From the NCBI GenBank assembly GCA_963668185.1, contig OY764162.1:2660478-2724477 (forward strand): 64,000 nt of DNA, read 5' to 3'. Position 1 is the stretch's first letter. Each line of letters opens with the position of its first letter. The translations under genes and the position numbers were made by a program. This stretch comes from Dehalococcoidia bacterium (GTDB lineage: Bacteria > Chloroflexota > Dehalococcoidia > Lucifugimonadales > G963668185). Positions 26,754 to 33,419 of the stretch are shown piece by piece. The notes beneath the pieces are model-generated. The model was not told the DNA's origin, searched no databases, and saw only the letters and a program-made list of their open reading frames with translations.

Positions 26754-28148
26754 ATGACCCATCCTGACATCGCCCTGATGGCCCACCTGATGCGCCGCGC
26801 CGGCTTCGGCGCTCCCAGGACCGAGCTCGAAGCACGCGCCGCCGCCGGCTACGAGGCCACCGTCGAAGAGCTTCTGTCCCCCGAAGACCAGGAGCCGGTG
26901 GACATCTTCGAGTTCCTGCGCTACCACCCAAGCCACTGGAAGCCCGGCACCCTCGGCGGCGTCGGCCAGGCAAGCTGGGTGTACCGCATGATCGCCACCA
27001 ACGCGCCGCTCCAGGAGAAGATGACCCTCTTCTGGCACCAGATCTTCGCCACAGGCGTCTCCAAGGTCGACCACTACCACGAAGTAACCGCCATGGTGGA
27101 CATGTTCCGGGACATCGGCATGGGCAAGTTCCGCGACATCGTCACCGGCGTCGCTAAGAACCCGGCCATGATCTTCTGGCTCGACAACCACGAGAACCAC
27201 GCATACGCCGTCAACGAGAACTGGGGCAGGGAGCTTCTCGAACTCTTCACCATGGGCGTCGGCAACTACACTGAGGAAGACGTTTACGAGGCCAGCCGCG
27301 CCTTCACGGGCTGGACGATAACGCCCAACCTGCCGCGGTTCACCATGGGCCGGTTCGACTGGGAGTTTGAGTACCGCGACCACGATCACGACCACACGGA
27401 GAAGAACTTCCTCGGTCACACCGGCAACTTCAACGGCGAAGACGTGATCGAGATCATCCTCGACCACCCGCAGTGCTCCCGGTTCATCGCCCGCCACCTG
27501 TACAACTACTTCGTTGCGGACGAGCCGCAGGTCCCCGCATGGAACGACACGCCGCCCAGGGACCCGGAGGCCGTTGAGGCTATAGCCGCCGCCCTGCGAG
27601 AGTCGGACTACGACATGCGCCACGCCCTGCGTGTGCTCTTCAACTCGGACTTCTTCAAGGACGCCCGCTTTGCCAGGGTGAAAAGCCCGGCTGAGGCCGT
27701 CATCGGCGCCCTGCGCCTCGCCGGCGGCAACGACTTTCCCGGCCCCTTCATGGTCGACTACGCTGAGGCCATCACCAACATGGGACAGGAGTTGCTGAAC
27801 CCGCCCTCGGTTGAAGGCTGGCACACCGGCGTCGAGTGGATCAACACAGGCTCCTCGGTCAAGAGGATCAACTTCTTCGCGGAGGTCCTGGGCGACGTGG
27901 GCCGCCCCGGCATTCACGAAATGCTCACTCGATTGAAGGCCCGGGGCGAGCTTTCGCCCGACGAGTTCGTCGACGGCTGTCTGGACCTCATGGGCCCCGT
28001 CGAAGTGACCGAGGACACTCACCGCGAGCTTGTAGATCACGCCGCCCAGTCCGGCCCGGTCGACTGGACCGGCAACGGGGCGTCGGAGACGCGCTTCTCC
28101 GAGATGGTGCAGTTGATCGCGTCCACAAGAGACTACCAGTTCGCATAG
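26754..28148 (+). CDS. DUF1800 family protein
   Basis: HLMRRAGFG, LQEKMTLFWH, NENWGRELLELFTMG, PPSVEGW. Confidence 0.9.
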   Translation: MTHPDIALMAHLMRRAGFGAPRTELEARAAAGYEATVEELLSPEDQEPVDIFEFLRYHPSHWKPGTLGGVGQASWVYRMIATNAPLQEKMTLFWHQIFATGVSKVDHYHEVTAMVDMFRDIGMGKFRDIVTGVAKNPAMIFWLDNHENHAYAVNENWGRELLELFTMGVGNYTEEDVYEASRAFTGWTITPNLPRFTMGRFDWEFEYRDHDHDHTEKNFLGHTGNFNGEDVIEIILDHPQCSRFIARHLYNYFVADEPQVPAWNDTPPRDPEAVEAIAAALRESDYDMRHALRVLFNSDFFKDARFARVKSPAEAVIGALRLAGGNDFPGPFMVDYAEAITNMGQELLNPPSVEGWHTGVEWINTGSSVKRINFFAEVLGDVGRPGIHEMLTRLKARGELSPDEFVDGCLDLMGPVEVTEDTHRELVDHAAQSGPVDWTGNGASETRFSEMVQLIASTRDYQFA

Positions 28149-28192
28149 GGAAGCAGCGCCGTGACCACTCAAATCATCGCCAACACAATCAA

Positions 28193-28229
28193 CCCCTTCC
28201 CCAGTCTGCTGGGGAAGGCTGGGATGGGG
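28193..28229 (+). repeat. CCCTTCCCCAGTCTGCTGGGGAAGG-type hairpin repeat
   Basis: Same family as 3056, 41918 and the copies inside 50597-51850. Confidence 0.85.
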
Positions 28230-28267
28230 TTCTGCATCGCACGAATGGGATCCGGTGAGGTTCGCTA

Positions 28268-29299
28268 ATGGTTACTCAAATCATCGCCAATAGGGTTTAC
28301 GACTACAGTCACGCCATTGGCGGCAGGGACATGATGAAGCCGTACAGCCTCGCATTGGCGTCGGGCAACGTTCTGTACCTGGTGAATCGCCTCATCTCCG
28401 GCCTGGCGCAGGTCCGCGCGGGGGCCGGAATCCCTACACAGATCAAGAAGATCGACACAGGCGCCGCTCCGGGGCAGGAGGAACTTCTGGCGGAGTTCGG
28501 CGTCATGGGCGAAGGCGAAGACCAGGTCTATTGGCCGTCCGGCATCGCCTGCGACAGCGCCGGCAACGTGTACGTCGCCGACGAGTGGCGGAACCGCATC
28601 GCCGTGTTTGACGGTGACGGACGTTTCCTCCGCGCGTGGGGAGAGCAGGGGAGTGGCGAAGGCCAGATCCTCGGCCCGTCCGGCCTGCAGTTCGACGTCG
28701 ACGACAACCTGTACGTCGTCGATGGCCGCAACCACCGCGTCCAGAAGTTCACCGGCGGCGGCGAGCGCATCGGCGGCTGGGGATCGCAGGGCTCCGGCCC
28801 CGGGCAGTTCGACTCGCCCTGGGGCCTGACCATCGACCATAACGGCGATGTGTACGTCGCCGACCACAAGAACAACCGCGTCCAGAAATTCACGCCCGAA
28901 GGCGAGTACCTGATGGAGTTCGGCAGCTACGGCGAAAAAGTGGGCGAGTTGAACCGCCCCACAGATGTCGCCGTCGACCCGGACGGAGACGTCTACGTTT
29001 GCGACTGGGCCAACAACCGCGTCAACGCATACGACAGCGCCGGCGCGCCCATCACCACGTTCGTAGGCGACGCCGCCGAGCTATCGAAGTGGCAGCAGCA
29101 GTTCGTCGACTCCAACGAAGGCGAGAAGCTGGCTAGGCGAAGGGCAGTGGACAAAGAAATCGGCTGGCGTCTCGCCATGCCCACCGCCGTCGAGTTCCAC
29201 CCCGCCAATAACTGGCTCATCATCTCAGACTACCAGCGCGGCCGCTTCCAGATCTACGCCAAGCTAAGCGACTACGACGAACCTCAGTTCAACCTGTAA
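28268..29299 (+). CDS. NHL-repeat beta-propeller protein
   Basis: Repeated F/W..P.GIA.D..GNVYVAD..NHRVQKF units. Confidence 0.9.
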   Translation: MVTQIIANRVYDYSHAIGGRDMMKPYSLALASGNVLYLVNRLISGLAQVRAGAGIPTQIKKIDTGAAPGQEELLAEFGVMGEGEDQVYWPSGIACDSAGNVYVADEWRNRIAVFDGDGRFLRAWGEQGSGEGQILGPSGLQFDVDDNLYVVDGRNHRVQKFTGGGERIGGWGSQGSGPGQFDSPWGLTIDHNGDVYVADHKNNRVQKFTPEGEYLMEFGSYGEKVGELNRPTDVAVDPDGDVYVCDWANNRVNAYDSAGAPITTFVGDAAELSKWQQQFVDSNEGEKLARRRAVDKEIGWRLAMPTAVEFHPANNWLIISDYQRGRFQIYAKLSDYDEPQFNL

Positions 29300-29324
29300 G
29301 AGGTAAGAGGGGACGCCCGCATCA

Positions 29325-29698
29325 CTACGCCTCGGACGTGCCGTCCGTCCCGGCCAGCGCTAGAACGCCGTTCACGAAATCGTGCACAATCGCGCGGTCG
29401 TCCAAGATCTCGAACTCCTCCATGAAGTCGTGGTAGAAGTTGCGGTGAAACTTTTCCGCGGCGGCAAATCCGCCTCGTAGCGCTGGGTCGCCGGACTGGT
29501 CCGCAAGTTGCCGCACTGCCGTTTTCAGTGAGCGGTGACTTCCATCAGGCCATCCGTTGTTTTGTGCCGCTGCCATGACAGCATGAGAAGCGGCGCCCCA
29601 TAGCTTCTCGCAGGCTTGCAGCCGGTCTCCGACGCTGAATTCCTTGTCGGAGTCCCTCAAGAACGTTCTGGCGGTCTGGATATGCTCGACTGCGTTCA
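29325..29698 (-). CDS. PaREP1-family (HEPN-like) protein, copy 1
   Basis: QACEKLWGAASHA and AEKFHRNFYH motifs; start placed at MNAVEH. Confidence 0.75.
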
Positions 29699-29760
29699 TG
29701 GGATCAGGCCCCTCCATTTTCTTGCCTAAGCCAACACAGTTCATCTCTTGGCTTGGATTA

Positions 29761-29830
29761 TACCAAGCGCGGCCGCTTCCAAATCTACGCCAATCTAAGC
29801 GACTACGACGAACCCCAGTTCAACCTGTAG
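29761..29830 (+). pseudogene. Duplicated 3-prime stub of the NHL gene
   Basis: Near copy of 29231-29299 (RGRFQIYAxLSDYDEPQFNL stop) with a few substitutions and one indel. Confidence 0.85.
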
Positions 29831-29839
29831 CGCCCACCT

Positions 29840-30934
29840 TTACTCGATTACGTGCACCGGCTCGCCGACCACGTCCTCGCGCAGCGTCAGGCCCAGCCCC
29901 GGCGCGTCCGATGCCGTGATGTTCGGGCCGTCCCTCTCAGGAAAGCCGTCGGCCGTTTTCAGAGTCACGTAGTCCGTGAGGTCCGTGTAGCAGATCAGGT
30001 ACTTCGGGTCCGTGCTCGCCGCGAAGTGCAGCAGCGCGGAAGACACGATCTCGCTGCCCCAGGAGTCGTCCGGCACCACACTGATGCCCAGGTCCAGCGC
30101 AAGGTCTCGCATCTTCCTCGCCTTCGTCAGTCCGCCGACGCGCGCCACCTTGATCGCGATCATGTCCATCGCGCCAGCCTCGTACCCGCGAATGATGTCC
30201 TGCGGCGTCTCGATCAGTTCGTCCAGCTTCACCGGGAGCGGACACCGTCGCCGGAAGTCGATGCTCTCCTCCCACGTCAGGCACGGCTGCTCCATGATCA
30301 CCGGCAGGTCGCGAATCGCGTTCGCCACCGTGATCGCCTCCGTCAGTGTGTACCGGGTGTTCCCGTCCAGCAGCAGGATCTCGTCTGGGTTGAGAATGTC
30401 ACACACGGCCTCGATCGCTGGTATGTCCTGCTTGGGACTTCGGCCCACCTTCTGCTGGAACGCCCGGAAGCCCTCCGCCCGCTTCTCGAGACATGCGTCA
30501 ACAATCTCTTCCGTCGTCACCGGATACTCCGGCGGGAAGTAGATAGAGCGATACAGCGGCGCCTGCCCCTCGTACCGTCCGCCCAGCAGATCGCACACCG
30601 GCCGCCCCGTAGCCTGCCCCATGATGTCCCACAGCGCCATGTCCAGCGGCGACTTCACGTACAGGTCATGGCTGAAGAAGGCGTCCCACTTGCGGTTGAG
30701 CCGCTCGTAGTGGAACGGGTCCTCCCCGATGAGGTGTTCTGCGATTATCGGAATGCCCGCGATCGCCCCTTCCGCGAATCCGCGCATGTAATTCGCGTTG
30801 ATGGTGCACACCTCGCCGAGGCCGACGTGACCTTCGTCAGTTTCCATCTTCACGATTACCGTCCGACTCCCCCGCGAGGAGTTTTCCTTGAACGGCAGGA
30901 TTGCCGTATAGACCGATATCCTGGTTATCTTCAT
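29840..30934 (-). CDS. Mandelate racemase/muconate lactonizing enzyme family protein
   Basis: Q-x-K motif (FQQKVG), metal ligands in LDGN, MEQP and LDEL, AIKVARVGG; resembles the hydroxyproline/proline-betaine epimerase-dehydratase branch. Confidence 0.85.
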   Translation of the reverse strand: MKITRISVYTAILPFKENSSRGSRTVIVKMETDEGHVGLGEVCTINANYMRGFAEGAIAGIPIIAEHLIGEDPFHYERLNRKWDAFFSHDLYVKSPLDMALWDIMGQATGRPVCDLLGGRYEGQAPLYRSIYFPPEYPVTTEEIVDACLEKRAEGFRAFQQKVGRSPKQDIPAIEAVCDILNPDEILLLDGNTRYTLTEAITVANAIRDLPVIMEQPCLTWEESIDFRRRCPLPVKLDELIETPQDIIRGYEAGAMDMIAIKVARVGGLTKARKMRDLALDLGISVVPDDSWGSEIVSSALLHFAASTDPKYLICYTDLTDYVTLKTADGFPERDGPNITASDAPGLGLTLREDVVGEPVHVIE

Positions 30935-33053: not shown

Positions 33054-33419
33054 TCATCCTTCCTGAGCTATGGAGAGAATCTTTTCGATGAAGTCCTCCA
33101 CCGATGGACGGGAGAACTGCAACTCTTCAAGTTCCATGAAACCGTGATAGAAGTTGGCGTGAAACTTCTCCGCGACGGCGAATCCGTCCCGTATGGAGTT
33201 GTCGCCGTATTCGATGCTGAGATCCCCCGCCGCCTTGCGCAGGGTGGCGTGAGTCCCGCACGGCCAGCCGCGCTGCCTGGCGACGGTTATCAGGGCCTGT
33301 GAAGCGGCGCCCCAGAGCTTCTCAGAACCCTGCATGTACTCTCCCACGGAAAACTCATGGTTCGCCCTTTCCAGAAATTCCCGCGCAGTTTCCGCGTGCT
33401 GCTCTACAGACATCACCAT
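33054..33419 (-). CDS. PaREP1-family (HEPN-like) protein, copy 2
   Basis: QGSEKLWGAASQA and AEKFHANFYH motifs; lies between ureA and ureB. Confidence 0.75.
   Translation of the reverse strand: MVMSVEQHAETAREFLERANHEFSVGEYMQGSEKLWGAASQALITVARQRGWPCGTHATLRKAAGDLSIEYGDNSIRDGFAVAEKFHANFYHGFMELEELQFSRPSVEDFIEKILSIAQEG

What the first reader, a model, noticed from the sequence alone, without database searches (positions are those of the whole stretch)
29231..29830. PaREP1 gene enclosed by a roughly 69-bp duplication of the NHL 3-prime end
29231-29299 recurs at 29761-29830 with a few substitutions, one indel and a different stop (TAA versus TAG). With the 5-prime stub, the NHL gene has remnants of a second allele on both sides. 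Inference: an incoming [repeat-NHL-PaREP1] segment replaced the interior of a resident NHL gene, or PaREP1 integrated via an att-like gene end without a local integrase.
Basis: partly seen in the sequence, partly recalled or inferred. Interest (0 to 1): 0.65.

Follow-up and report, generated by a model that had tools for sequence, protein, structure and literature searches.

The report
PaREP1 cassette inside duplicated gene end
A small accessory gene (PaREP1, a HEPN-fold protein) was inserted long ago just after the stop codon of an NHL-repeat gene in an uncultured Chloroflexota bacterium, copying the last 69 bases of that gene so it stayed intact; this enzyme-free-looking "insertion with long target duplication" is already known for restriction-modification genes.

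Summary
Window 29231-29299 recurs at 29761-29830: 64 nt at 95% without gaps, 69/70 nt with one 1-nt indel, TAA versus TAG. The pair is unique in the 2.78-Mb genome. It brackets a 461-bp cassette that holds one gene, PaREP1 (Pfam PF05942, 124 aa, minus strand).

A congener (G001) has the empty NHL/MR_MLE junction with one copy of the repeat. Three metagenome relatives (L016-L018) carry the same cassette and stub, including the stub's extra A. So this was one old insertion. PaREP1 is inherited and constrained (dN/dS about 0.1, dS 0.7-1.1). The downstream copy is a decaying relic.

The 5' stub is also real, but it belongs to a separate 107-nt hairpin-repeat module. L018 has the PaREP1 cassette and stub without that module.

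Its second idea, entry at a gene end with no local integrase, fits.

The closest known kind is "insertion with long target duplication" (Furuta et al. 2010). A second PaREP1 paralog (prmC locus) and several toxin-antitoxin cassettes in this genome have the same layout.

Verdict: new member of a known kind, moderate interest. The joining mechanism is inferred, not shown.

The parts
26754..28148 (+). DUF1800 gene, the conserved left neighbour
   Evidence: Pfam PF08811, E 2.3e-99. It is syntenic in G001-G003, L017 and L018.
28161..28184 (+). 5' stub: the ancestral start of the NHL gene (GTG plus 7 codons), still 13 nt after the DUF1800 stop. It now opens a 35-codon upstream ORF (28161-28268) whose TAA overlaps the NHL ATG (TAATG).
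   Evidence: All three congeners and L018 start NHL exactly here. It matches 28268-28291 at 19 of 24 positions.
28191..28235 (+). REP-like hairpin element (CCCTTCCCCAG TCTG CTGGGGAAGG ... GGGATGGGGT). It is the core of the 107-nt module inserted at NHL codon 8/9. This is an event separate from the PaREP1 insertion.
   Evidence: There are 189 exact-core copies in the genome and 8 in the window against 0 expected. The module is absent in L018 and G001-G003. It is present in L016 and L017, and tandemly repeated in L017.
28268..29299 (+). Intact NHL-repeat beta-propeller gene (343 aa)
   Evidence: Pfam NHL, E 1.3e-32. Orthologues in G001-G003 are 81-87% identical at the amino-acid level. dN/dS is 0.13-0.15.
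29231..29299 (+). T: the last 69 nt of NHL including the TAA stop. This is the upstream, functional copy of the duplicated target.
   Evidence: It diverges only 6-10% between G000, L017 and L018.
29300..29760 (-). Inserted 461-bp cassette: a 25-nt tail, the PaREP1 gene, and a 61-nt leader with a GGAGG ribosome-binding site
   Evidence: It is absent from G001, which has the empty site. It is orthologous in L016, L017 and L018.
29325..29699 (-). PaREP1 / HEPN-T gene (124 aa; the longest ORF would run to 29744)
   Evidence: PF05942, E 2.8e-14, with a weak HEPN hit. There are 572+ homologues, mostly 121-125 aa. H85 and N87 are invariant and R86 is not conserved. dN/dS is 0.08-0.13 against the L017 and L018 orthologues.
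29761..29830 (+). T': the displaced copy of the NHL 3' end (70 nt, extra A, TAG). It is a non-coding relic continuous with the ancestral downstream DNA.
   Evidence: It aligns with the single copy at the G001 empty site together with the following spacer. The same stub, with the same extra A, is in L016, L017 and L018. It diverges 13-21% between species.
29840..30934 (-). Enolase-superfamily (MR_MLE) gene, the conserved right neighbour. It is co-directional with PaREP1.
   Evidence: Pfam PF13378 and PF02746. It is syntenic in G001-G003 and L016-L018.

Best explanation
A 461-bp single-gene cassette carrying a PaREP1 (HEPN-T type) gene was inserted once, long ago. It landed in the 9-nt gap between the convergent NHL and enolase-superfamily genes, immediately after the NHL stop codon. 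The same event duplicated the last 69 nt of NHL.

The upstream copy (T) keeps the NHL gene whole. The downstream copy (T') is a slowly decaying relic. This is the pattern called 'insertion with long target duplication'.

Shown here:
- an empty site with one copy of T in a congener;
- an orthologous cassette and stub in three other genomes;
- near-identity of T and T' at their origin;
- purifying selection on PaREP1;
- no recombinase gene in or near the cassette.

Inferred:
- The joining was done by host replication or recombination, as two illegitimate, microhomology-level joins or template switches. The second join landed 69 nt behind the first.
- It was not done by a cassette-encoded or site-specific enzyme.
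- In this compact genome, only insertions that rebuilt the gene end survived selection.

The 5' stub and hairpin repeat is a second, independent event of the same general type.
For: The repeat is real and unique.

Empty site and hotspot:
- G001 has NHL-TAG, a roughly 50-nt spacer and MR_MLE, with a single T. T' plus its downstream DNA aligns to it.
- The junction has four states: empty (G001), a roughly 420-nt filler (G002), a DnaJ-domain gene with no stub (G003), and PaREP1 plus stub (G000, L016-L018).

One old event:
- L016, L017 and L018 share the cassette, its boundaries and the stub's extra A.
- The ancestral T' equals the ancestral T plus one A.
- PaREP1 has dN/dS 0.08-0.13 and dS 0.74-1.06. 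NHL has dS 0.64 for G000 versus L018.
- T' diverges 13-21% and T 6-10%.

No enzyme in sight:
- The cassette encodes no recombinase.
- The genome has no Ku and only two tyrosine recombinases, of 298 and 320 aa.

The same layout recurs:
- At a second PaREP1 paralog next to prmC, with empty sites in G001 and G003.
- Around BrnT/BrnA, Phd/PIN, DUF4160/DUF2442 and DUF2283 cassettes in this genome.
- At PaREP1 loci in other Dehalococcoidia (L097, L065, L085).

The published pattern: repeats longer than 30 bp, variable in length, often spanning a start or stop codon so that the target gene stays intact, with no linked mobility gene (PMC2853133).
Against: - The molecular mechanism is not observed. The event is old (dS about 1), so the junctions may have changed. 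The only junction clue is a weak TACC(A) similarity at the right join.
- T ends exactly at the stop codon. A random-breakpoint model does not predict this, although the spacer is only 9 nt.
- The stub has diverged less than the adjacent spacers (14% versus 20-35%; small numbers, not significant). Gene conversion or some constraint may be acting on it.
- At the prmC locus the stub is a foreign allele. At least some of these layouts therefore arise by recombination with DNA from relatives, not by self-duplication.
- One look-alike (the vapBC 51-nt repeat) turned out to be a local rearrangement. Another is a tRNA 3' end, which points to classical integration.
- Close PaREP1 relatives at other sites show no flanking duplication.
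Confidence: 0.72

Rival explanations
1. One incoming DNA segment, [hairpin repeat - NHL allele - PaREP1], replaced the interior of the resident NHL gene by illegitimate joins inside the gene. The first 8 and last 23 resident codons were left as stubs.
For: Both stubs lie exactly where the ancestral gene ends lay. The G000 5' stub reads GTG ACC, like G002. The working start reads ATG GTT, like G001 and G003.
Against: L018 has PaREP1 and the 3' stub but an undisturbed 5' end. In L017 the 5' stub is identical to the working start, and the 107-nt module is tandemly repeated and also precedes a second, divergent NHL gene. The ancestral 3' stub equals the ancestral gene end plus one A. NHL is not anomalously diverged relative to DUF1800: 86% versus 87.5% identity to G003. 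The NHL tree is a star, with no discordant placement.
Confidence: 0.06
2. Site-specific integration: a small integrative element, or the decayed rump of one, used the NHL 3' end as its attachment site and carried a surrogate copy of it, as prophages e14 and 21 do in E. coli icd. The integrase acted in trans or has since been lost.
For: The layout (gene - element - displaced 3' end) is the same as for such elements (my own knowledge of icd and tRNA integrations). The same genome has a 2-kb cassette bracketed by a 73-nt tRNA 3' end.
Against: There is no integrase in the cassette or the neighbourhood. Only two Xer-sized tyrosine recombinases exist in the genome. The cassette is 461 bp with the same boundaries in four genomes. 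Close PaREP1 relatives sit at other sites without this T. T and T' were near-identical at origin.
Confidence: 0.08
3. Import from a relative by one homologous and one illegitimate crossover (homology-facilitated illegitimate recombination). A fragment [NHL 3' end - PaREP1] from a donor that already had PaREP1 downstream of NHL anchored in NHL. Its other end joined 69 nt upstream of the resident stop, so T is donor DNA and T' is resident DNA.
For: The prmC stub in this genome is clearly from another lineage. Its dN to its own gene is 0.33, as far as G001 and G002, while the gene is 0.10 from G003; the stub is still an open 76-codon frame. ComEC is present. Most published cases of insertion with long target duplication are in naturally competent species.
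Against: At the NHL site, T and T' were near-identical at origin. This requires a donor from the same population. It also only moves the origin of the NHL-PaREP1 junction back one step.
Confidence: 0.1
4. Plain tandem duplication of NHL followed by decay. A second NHL copy was reduced to its last 69 nt, and PaREP1 landed between the copies.
For: L017 does carry two tandem NHL genes.
Against: The extra L017 copy is the upstream one and is only about 75% identical, so it is a divergent paralogue and not a recent duplicate. The left edge of the stub is identical in all four genomes and abuts the cassette directly. There is no other NHL debris. This model needs three events where one suffices.
Confidence: 0.04

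Closest known systems
[quoted passage not shown] 2000, Gene 259:99; Furuta, Abe and Kobayashi 2010, PMC2853133)
   Same: A short accessory unit is flanked by direct repeats longer than 30 bp. These repeats are single-copy at the empty site of a related genome. Their length varies from case to case. They often span a start or stop codon, so the target gene survives. No integrase or transposase is linked. Tandem amplification through the repeats is seen in relatives (L065, L085 and the L017 5' module).
   Different: The cargo is a lone HEPN-fold PaREP1 gene (and, elsewhere in this genome, toxin-antitoxin pairs), not restriction-modification genes. The host is an uncultured Dehalococcoidia-type Chloroflexota. 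The event is ancient and fixed across several species, not a strain polymorphism. One sister case (prmC) carries a foreign-allele stub.
PaREP1/PaREP8 family, the HEPN-T (Parep1/8) clade (Anantharaman et al. 2013, PMC3710099; Pfam PF05942)
   Same: The Pfam match is well above threshold. The conserved H is kept and the R of Rx4-6H is not conserved. The family is multi-copy (at least 15 paralogues here) and often in tandem. It is associated with variable regions, as paREP1/8 genes are at Pyrobaculum indels (PMC3558965).
   Different: The family was described as archaeal. Here, and in hundreds of metagenome relatives, it is bacterial (Dehalococcoidia). There is no adjacent MNT or REase partner at this locus. 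No function has been tested.
Prophages and islands that integrate into the 3' end of a gene and carry a replacement end (e14 and phage 21 in icd; tRNA and tmRNA islands). From my own knowledge.
   Same: The gene stays intact and a displaced 3' fragment is left on the far side of the insert.
   Different: Those elements encode an integrase and are kilobases long. Here the insert is 461 bp with one non-recombinase gene.
Chromosomal type II toxin-antitoxin cassettes
   Same: A small, patchily distributed accessory unit sits in short intergenic gaps. The same genome shows BrnTA, Phd-PIN and DUF4160/DUF2442 pairs with the same repeat bracket.
   Different: This is a single gene with no recognisable antitoxin. 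Toxicity is untested.

Membership tests
Insertion with long target duplication (Furuta et al. 2010 criteria) | The insert is flanked by direct repeats longer than 30 bp that are not a dispersed repeat | tested here: met
   Repeats of 69 and 70 nt, found only at these two places in the genome
Insertion with long target duplication (Furuta et al. 2010 criteria) | A related genome has an empty site in which the repeat occurs once and aligns with both copies | tested here: met
   G001 has NHL-TAG-spacer-MR_MLE with a single T
Insertion with long target duplication (Furuta et al. 2010 criteria) | No linked mobility gene; insert shorter than 20 kb; repeat is not a tRNA or known att | tested here: met
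   The insert is 461 bp and holds only PaREP1. The neighbours are DUF1800, NHL, MR_MLE and urease. T is protein-coding.
Insertion with long target duplication (Furuta et al. 2010 criteria) | The cargo is a restriction-modification system (a screen criterion of the published work) | tested here: not met
   The cargo is PF05942 PaREP1. For this reason the finding is filed as a new member, not as an instance already described.
PaREP1 / HEPN-T (Parep1/8) | A match to Pfam PF05942 above the gathering score | tested here: met
   53.5 bits against a cut-off of 24.4, E 2.8e-14
PaREP1 / HEPN-T (Parep1/8) | The conserved H of the HEPN motif is kept while the R is not conserved (PMC3710099, Table 1) | tested here: met
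   H85 and N87 are invariant in 32 homologues. Position 86 is R here and A in the consensus.
PaREP1 / HEPN-T (Parep1/8) | HEPN four-helix fold | tested here: inconclusive
   There are only weak sequence hits to 2q00/2jpu (E 0.095) and 2hsb (E 0.91). No structure was predicted.
Integrase-mediated integrative element with a gene-end att | An integrase is encoded in or next to the element | tested here: not met
   There is none in the cassette or neighbourhood. The genome has two tyrosine recombinases, far away at 578 kb and 2609 kb.
Integrase-mediated integrative element with a gene-end att | The element-borne surrogate gene end differs from the displaced native end outside a short identical core | tested here: not met
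   The ancestral T' equals the ancestral T plus one A over the whole 69 nt
Type II toxin-antitoxin module | Two adjacent co-transcribed genes, toxin and antitoxin | tested here: not met
   The 461-bp insert holds a single 124-aa gene

The most novel reading that the evidence does not exclude
PaREP1 (HEPN-T) genes and toxin-antitoxin pairs of Dehalococcoidia may form a class of recombinase-less cassettes. Their 'mobility device' would be the duplicated end of a host gene.

Once bracketed by T and T', the unit could do three things using only host homologous recombination:
- loop out as a T-bearing circle;
- amplify into [cassette+T]n arrays;
- re-enter the same gene end of naive relatives.

This is the life cycle that Kobayashi's group hypothesised for restriction-modification systems but never demonstrated.

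The observations that fit:
- 2 of 13 PaREP1 loci in this genome are bracketed by a gene-end duplicate, against roughly 20 such brackets among all genes;
- the L065 and L085 arrays, and L097;
- the foreign-allele stub at prmC;
- similar unverified notes from other genomes of this scan.
Probability: 0.15. Interest if true: 0.6.

Novelty: new member of a known kind. Interest (0 to 1): 0.35.

Why it matters
- **Extends a known pattern.** It shows that the poorly understood 'insertion with long target duplication' route is not peculiar to restriction-modification genes or to competent proteobacteria. The same route also places HEPN-type and toxin-antitoxin cassettes into the tight intergenic gaps of streamlined Chloroflexota genomes.
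- **Annotation.** It explains gene-end 'stubs' that could otherwise be mis-annotated as pseudogenes or as signs of allele replacement.
- **A dated example.** The cassette, stub and empty site are spread over at least seven genomes. This could be used to ask how long such relics persist and whether they are kept alike by gene conversion.
- **Limit.** It does not reveal a new kind of system.

Tried and rejected
- **Exact look-up of the 139-aa ORF in public assemblies.** It found nothing. A near-identical copy (P0001, 99%) came from the homology search instead.
- **Second allele at the 3' end.** Rejected. Every difference in this genome is private to one copy, and the other copy keeps the state of the relatives.
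- **Imported NHL body.** Rejected. Sliding-window identity and a tree show no discordance.
- **Conserved cassette ends shared by PaREP1 paralogues (attC-like).** Nothing beyond the coding HxNFY region matches.
- **Flanking duplications at the next-closest PaREP1 homologues (L019-L021).** None found.
- **Survey of 78 Dehalococcoidia PaREP1 loci.** 13 have flanking direct repeats, against 1 of 156 distant control windows. Nine of the 13 are simply tandem PaREP1 arrays and one is a REP element. Only L097, L065 and L085 are true neighbour-gene stubs, so the enrichment is not significant by itself.
- **Empty-site checks for two other bracketed cassettes.**
  - For one, synteny is not conserved.
  - The other (vapBC) proved to be a local rearrangement, because G003 has vapBC plus an extra gene at that place.
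- **NHEJ as the joining route.** Unlikely, because Ku is absent.
- **Promoter and terminator scan.** Nothing informative.

Full report
**Setting.** Its PaREP1 relatives come from Dehalococcoidia MAGs.

The local gene order is as follows:
- DUF1800 (26754-28148, +)
- NHL-repeat protein (28268-29299, +)
- PaREP1 (minus strand)
- an enolase-superfamily MR_MLE gene (29840-30934, -)
- a urease-like alpha subunit

**The observation.** The repeat finder returns 29235-29298 versus 29766-29829: 64 nt, 95% identical. Local alignment extends the homology to TACCA at 29231 and 29761. That gives 69 versus 70 nt, with one extra A in the downstream copy. The upstream copy ends in TAA and the downstream copy in TAG. 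A whole-genome BLAST finds the sequence nowhere else.

The 5' stub is real too. GTG ACC ACT CAA ATC ATC GCC AAC at 28161-28184 mirrors the working start ATG GTT ACT CAA ATC ATC GCC AAT at 28268-28291.

Between the two starts lies a hairpin element (28191-28235). It belongs to a REP-like family with 189 exact-core copies in the genome.

**What relatives show about the 3' end.** Three genomes of the same genus carry the orthologous NHL gene (81-87% amino-acid identity). Their NHL/MR_MLE junctions differ:
- In G001, NHL ends in TAG and is followed after about 50 nt by MR_MLE. The window's stub and the DNA after it align with this single copy. G001 is therefore an empty site.
- G002 has an unrelated filler of about 420 nt with other small repeats.
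- G003 has a 440-aa DnaJ-domain membrane protein gene and no stub.

The junction is a hotspot with four states.

The homology search found PaREP1 proteins 83-99% identical to this one. Their contigs (L016, L017, L018) carry the gene at the same place, between NHL and MR_MLE. The cassette boundaries are the same. The stub is the same too, including the odd ...GGATTA|TACCAAGCG... join with the extra A. So this was one insertion in a common ancestor.

Evidence on its age and on selection since then:
- PaREP1 has evolved under strong constraint: dN/dS is 0.08-0.13, with dS 0.74-1.06.
- The adjacent NHL gene is comparable: dS 0.64 and dN/dS 0.13 for G000 versus L018.
- The consensus of the four stubs equals the consensus functional end plus one A.
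- The substitutions seen in this window are later private changes. CAA and AAT arose in the stub; CCT and TAA arose in the gene. L017 and L018 still end the gene in TAG.
- The stubs differ 13-21% between species and the functional ends 6-10%. The other non-coding parts of the cassette differ 20-35%.

The stub is therefore a relic. It is somewhat better preserved than its surroundings. I cannot explain this with confidence; the possibilities are gene conversion from T, weak constraint, or chance.

**What relatives show about the 5' end.** In G001-G003 and in L018, NHL starts 13 nt after the DUF1800 stop. That is exactly where the window's stub lies.

G000, L016 and L017 have a 107-nt insertion after codon 8. 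It consists of the hairpin element, 32 further bases with a GGTGAGG ribosome-binding site, and a fresh copy of the first 8 codons. The stub plus hairpin reads as a 35-codon ORF whose TAA overlaps the NHL ATG. This frame is kept in L017.

In L017 the module is tandemly repeated. It also precedes a second, only about 75%-identical NHL gene.

L018 combines the PaREP1 cassette and 3' stub with an untouched 5' end. The simplest reading is two independent events. A single 'replaced interior' event would need a later precise deletion in L018. It also finds no support in gene divergence: NHL is 86% and DUF1800 87.5% identical to G003, and the NHL tree is a star.

**A pattern in this genome.** PaREP1 has at least 15 paralogues here. 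One of them lies at genome 1929443-1929844, between an intact prmC and a 76-codon prmC 3' stub. G001 and G003 have the empty prmC site.

That stub is not a self-copy:
- Its dN to the resident gene is 0.33, as far as the G001 and G002 orthologues.
- The resident gene is 0.10 from G003.
- The stub is still an open frame that keeps the family's conserved residues.

It therefore came from another lineage's working gene.

A genome self-comparison found further small units bracketed by unique direct repeats of 42-169 nt. Their cargo is:
- BrnT/BrnA
- Phd/PIN
- DUF4160/DUF2442
- DUF2283
- a PIN pair
- an AbiE-like pair

Not all of these are the same thing:
- The AbiE-like unit is bracketed by a tRNA 3' end, which fits classical integration.
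- The vapBC repeat arose by a local rearrangement.
- In the BrnTA case and in a two-gene case, the repeat duplicates the 3' end of the adjacent gene.

**Beyond this genome.** Among 78 Dehalococcoidia PaREP1 loci:
- L097 has PaREP1 bracketed by a copy of the downstream gene's start, beginning at its ATG.
- L065 and L085 have [PaREP1 + neighbour 3' stub] units in tandem.
- Most other flanking repeats are plain tandem PaREP1 arrays.

Earlier notes of this scan describe the same layout in other genomes. I treat them as leads only.

**Mechanism.** The cassette encodes only a HEPN-fold protein, with H85 and N87 invariant and R not conserved, as described for HEPN-T Parep1/8. Nothing in it could cut or join DNA. 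The genome has no Ku and only two Xer-sized tyrosine recombinases. ComEC is present.

I therefore favour host-mediated illegitimate joining or template switching, in which the second join fell 69 nt behind the first. Selection would then keep only products that left both convergent genes intact. This step is inferred, not shown.

The prmC case shows that recombination with DNA from relatives also produces such stubs.

**Comparison with the literature.** Furuta, Abe and Kobayashi (PMC2853133) define 'insertion with long target duplication' for restriction-modification systems. Its features are repeats longer than 30 bp that vary in length, an empty site in a relative, and no linked mobility gene. 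The repeats often span a start or stop codon so that the target gene stays intact. They also suggest amplification through the repeats.

The present case meets every structural criterion. It differs in cargo and host. It is a new member of that kind, not a new kind.

**Limits.**
- The event is old, so the junction details may not be original.

Noticed in passing
window 28161-28268: The 5' stub plus hairpin repeat forms a 35-codon upstream ORF (MTTQIIANTINPFPSLLGKAGMGFCIARMGSGEVR*). Its TAA overlaps the NHL ATG (TAATG). The frame and the overlap are kept in L017, which suggests translational coupling after the repeat landed in codon 8/9.
   Followed up: partly
L017:1895-3480 (minus strand): This contig has two tandem NHL genes. 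The DUF1800-proximal copy is only about 75% identical to all orthologues. The 107-nt [8 codons + hairpin + RBS] module stands once before the first gene, which also has an extra 42-nt internal duplication. It stands twice in tandem before the second gene.
   Followed up: partly
genome C1:1928966-1930215 (outside the window): A PaREP1 paralogue flanked by identical 34-nt REP copies lies between an intact prmC and a 76-codon prmC 3' stub. The stub is a foreign allele (dN 0.33 to the resident gene), and it abuts a 250-aa gene that G002 also has next to prmC.
   Followed up: yes
genome C1:1781279-1783412: A 2-kb unit with an AbiEii-like gene (weak hit) and an HTH gene is bracketed by a 73-nt, 98.6%-identical copy of a tRNA 3' end. 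This is a classical att signature, yet no integrase is inside the unit.
   Followed up: no
genome C1:2008466-2009278, 1151409-1152739, 2754136-2755035, 1103304-1103953, 351028-353299: BrnT/BrnA, Phd/PIN, DUF4160/DUF2442 and DUF2283 cassettes, and a low-GC two-gene unit, are each bracketed by unique direct repeats of 53-169 nt. In the BrnTA and two-gene cases the repeat duplicates the adjacent gene's 3' end.
   Followed up: partly
genome C1:2248160-2248919; L026, L027: The 51-nt repeat around vapBC is not an insertion scar. G003 has vapBC plus a 176-aa gene at this site, and G002 has remnants. In G000 that gene was replaced by a copy of the vapB leader, which now supplies VapC's last codons and extends the start of the enolase-like gene.
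   Followed up: yes
window 29761-29830 versus L016-L018: The relic stub has no indels among four genomes beyond the shared extra A. It has diverged 13-21%, less than the adjacent cassette spacers (20-35%) and far less than dS (0.7-1.1). The G000 copy has only about 3 changes from the ancestral state, against 9-11 in L017 and L018. Gene conversion from the working copy is possible.
   Followed up: partly
window 29299/29300; 28161; L097:2412; genome 351120: In several cases the outer edge of the duplicated target coincides, to within 0-1 nt, with a start or stop codon. Short spacers may explain this, but it was not tested statistically.
   Followed up: no
whole genome: At least three REP-like hairpin families are very abundant: CCCTTCCCCAGTCTGCTGGGGAAGG, CGTTCGCCCTGAGCCTGTCGAAGGGC and GTCATTCCCGCGAAGGCGGGAATCC. 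Only two weak Y1-transposase (RAYT-like) matches exist, at 1030345 and 2121819.
   Followed up: no
window 33066-33413 (minus strand): A second PaREP1 paralogue (48% identical) sits 3.3 kb away, inside the urease-like gene cluster.
   Followed up: no
L065:2285-2987, L085:2478-3373, L097:2412-2904: In other Dehalococcoidia, PaREP1 genes occur as tandem [PaREP1 + stub of the neighbour's 3' end] units (L065, L085). In L097 a PaREP1 gene is bracketed by a copy of the first roughly 65 nt of the downstream TPP-enzyme-like gene.
   Followed up: partly
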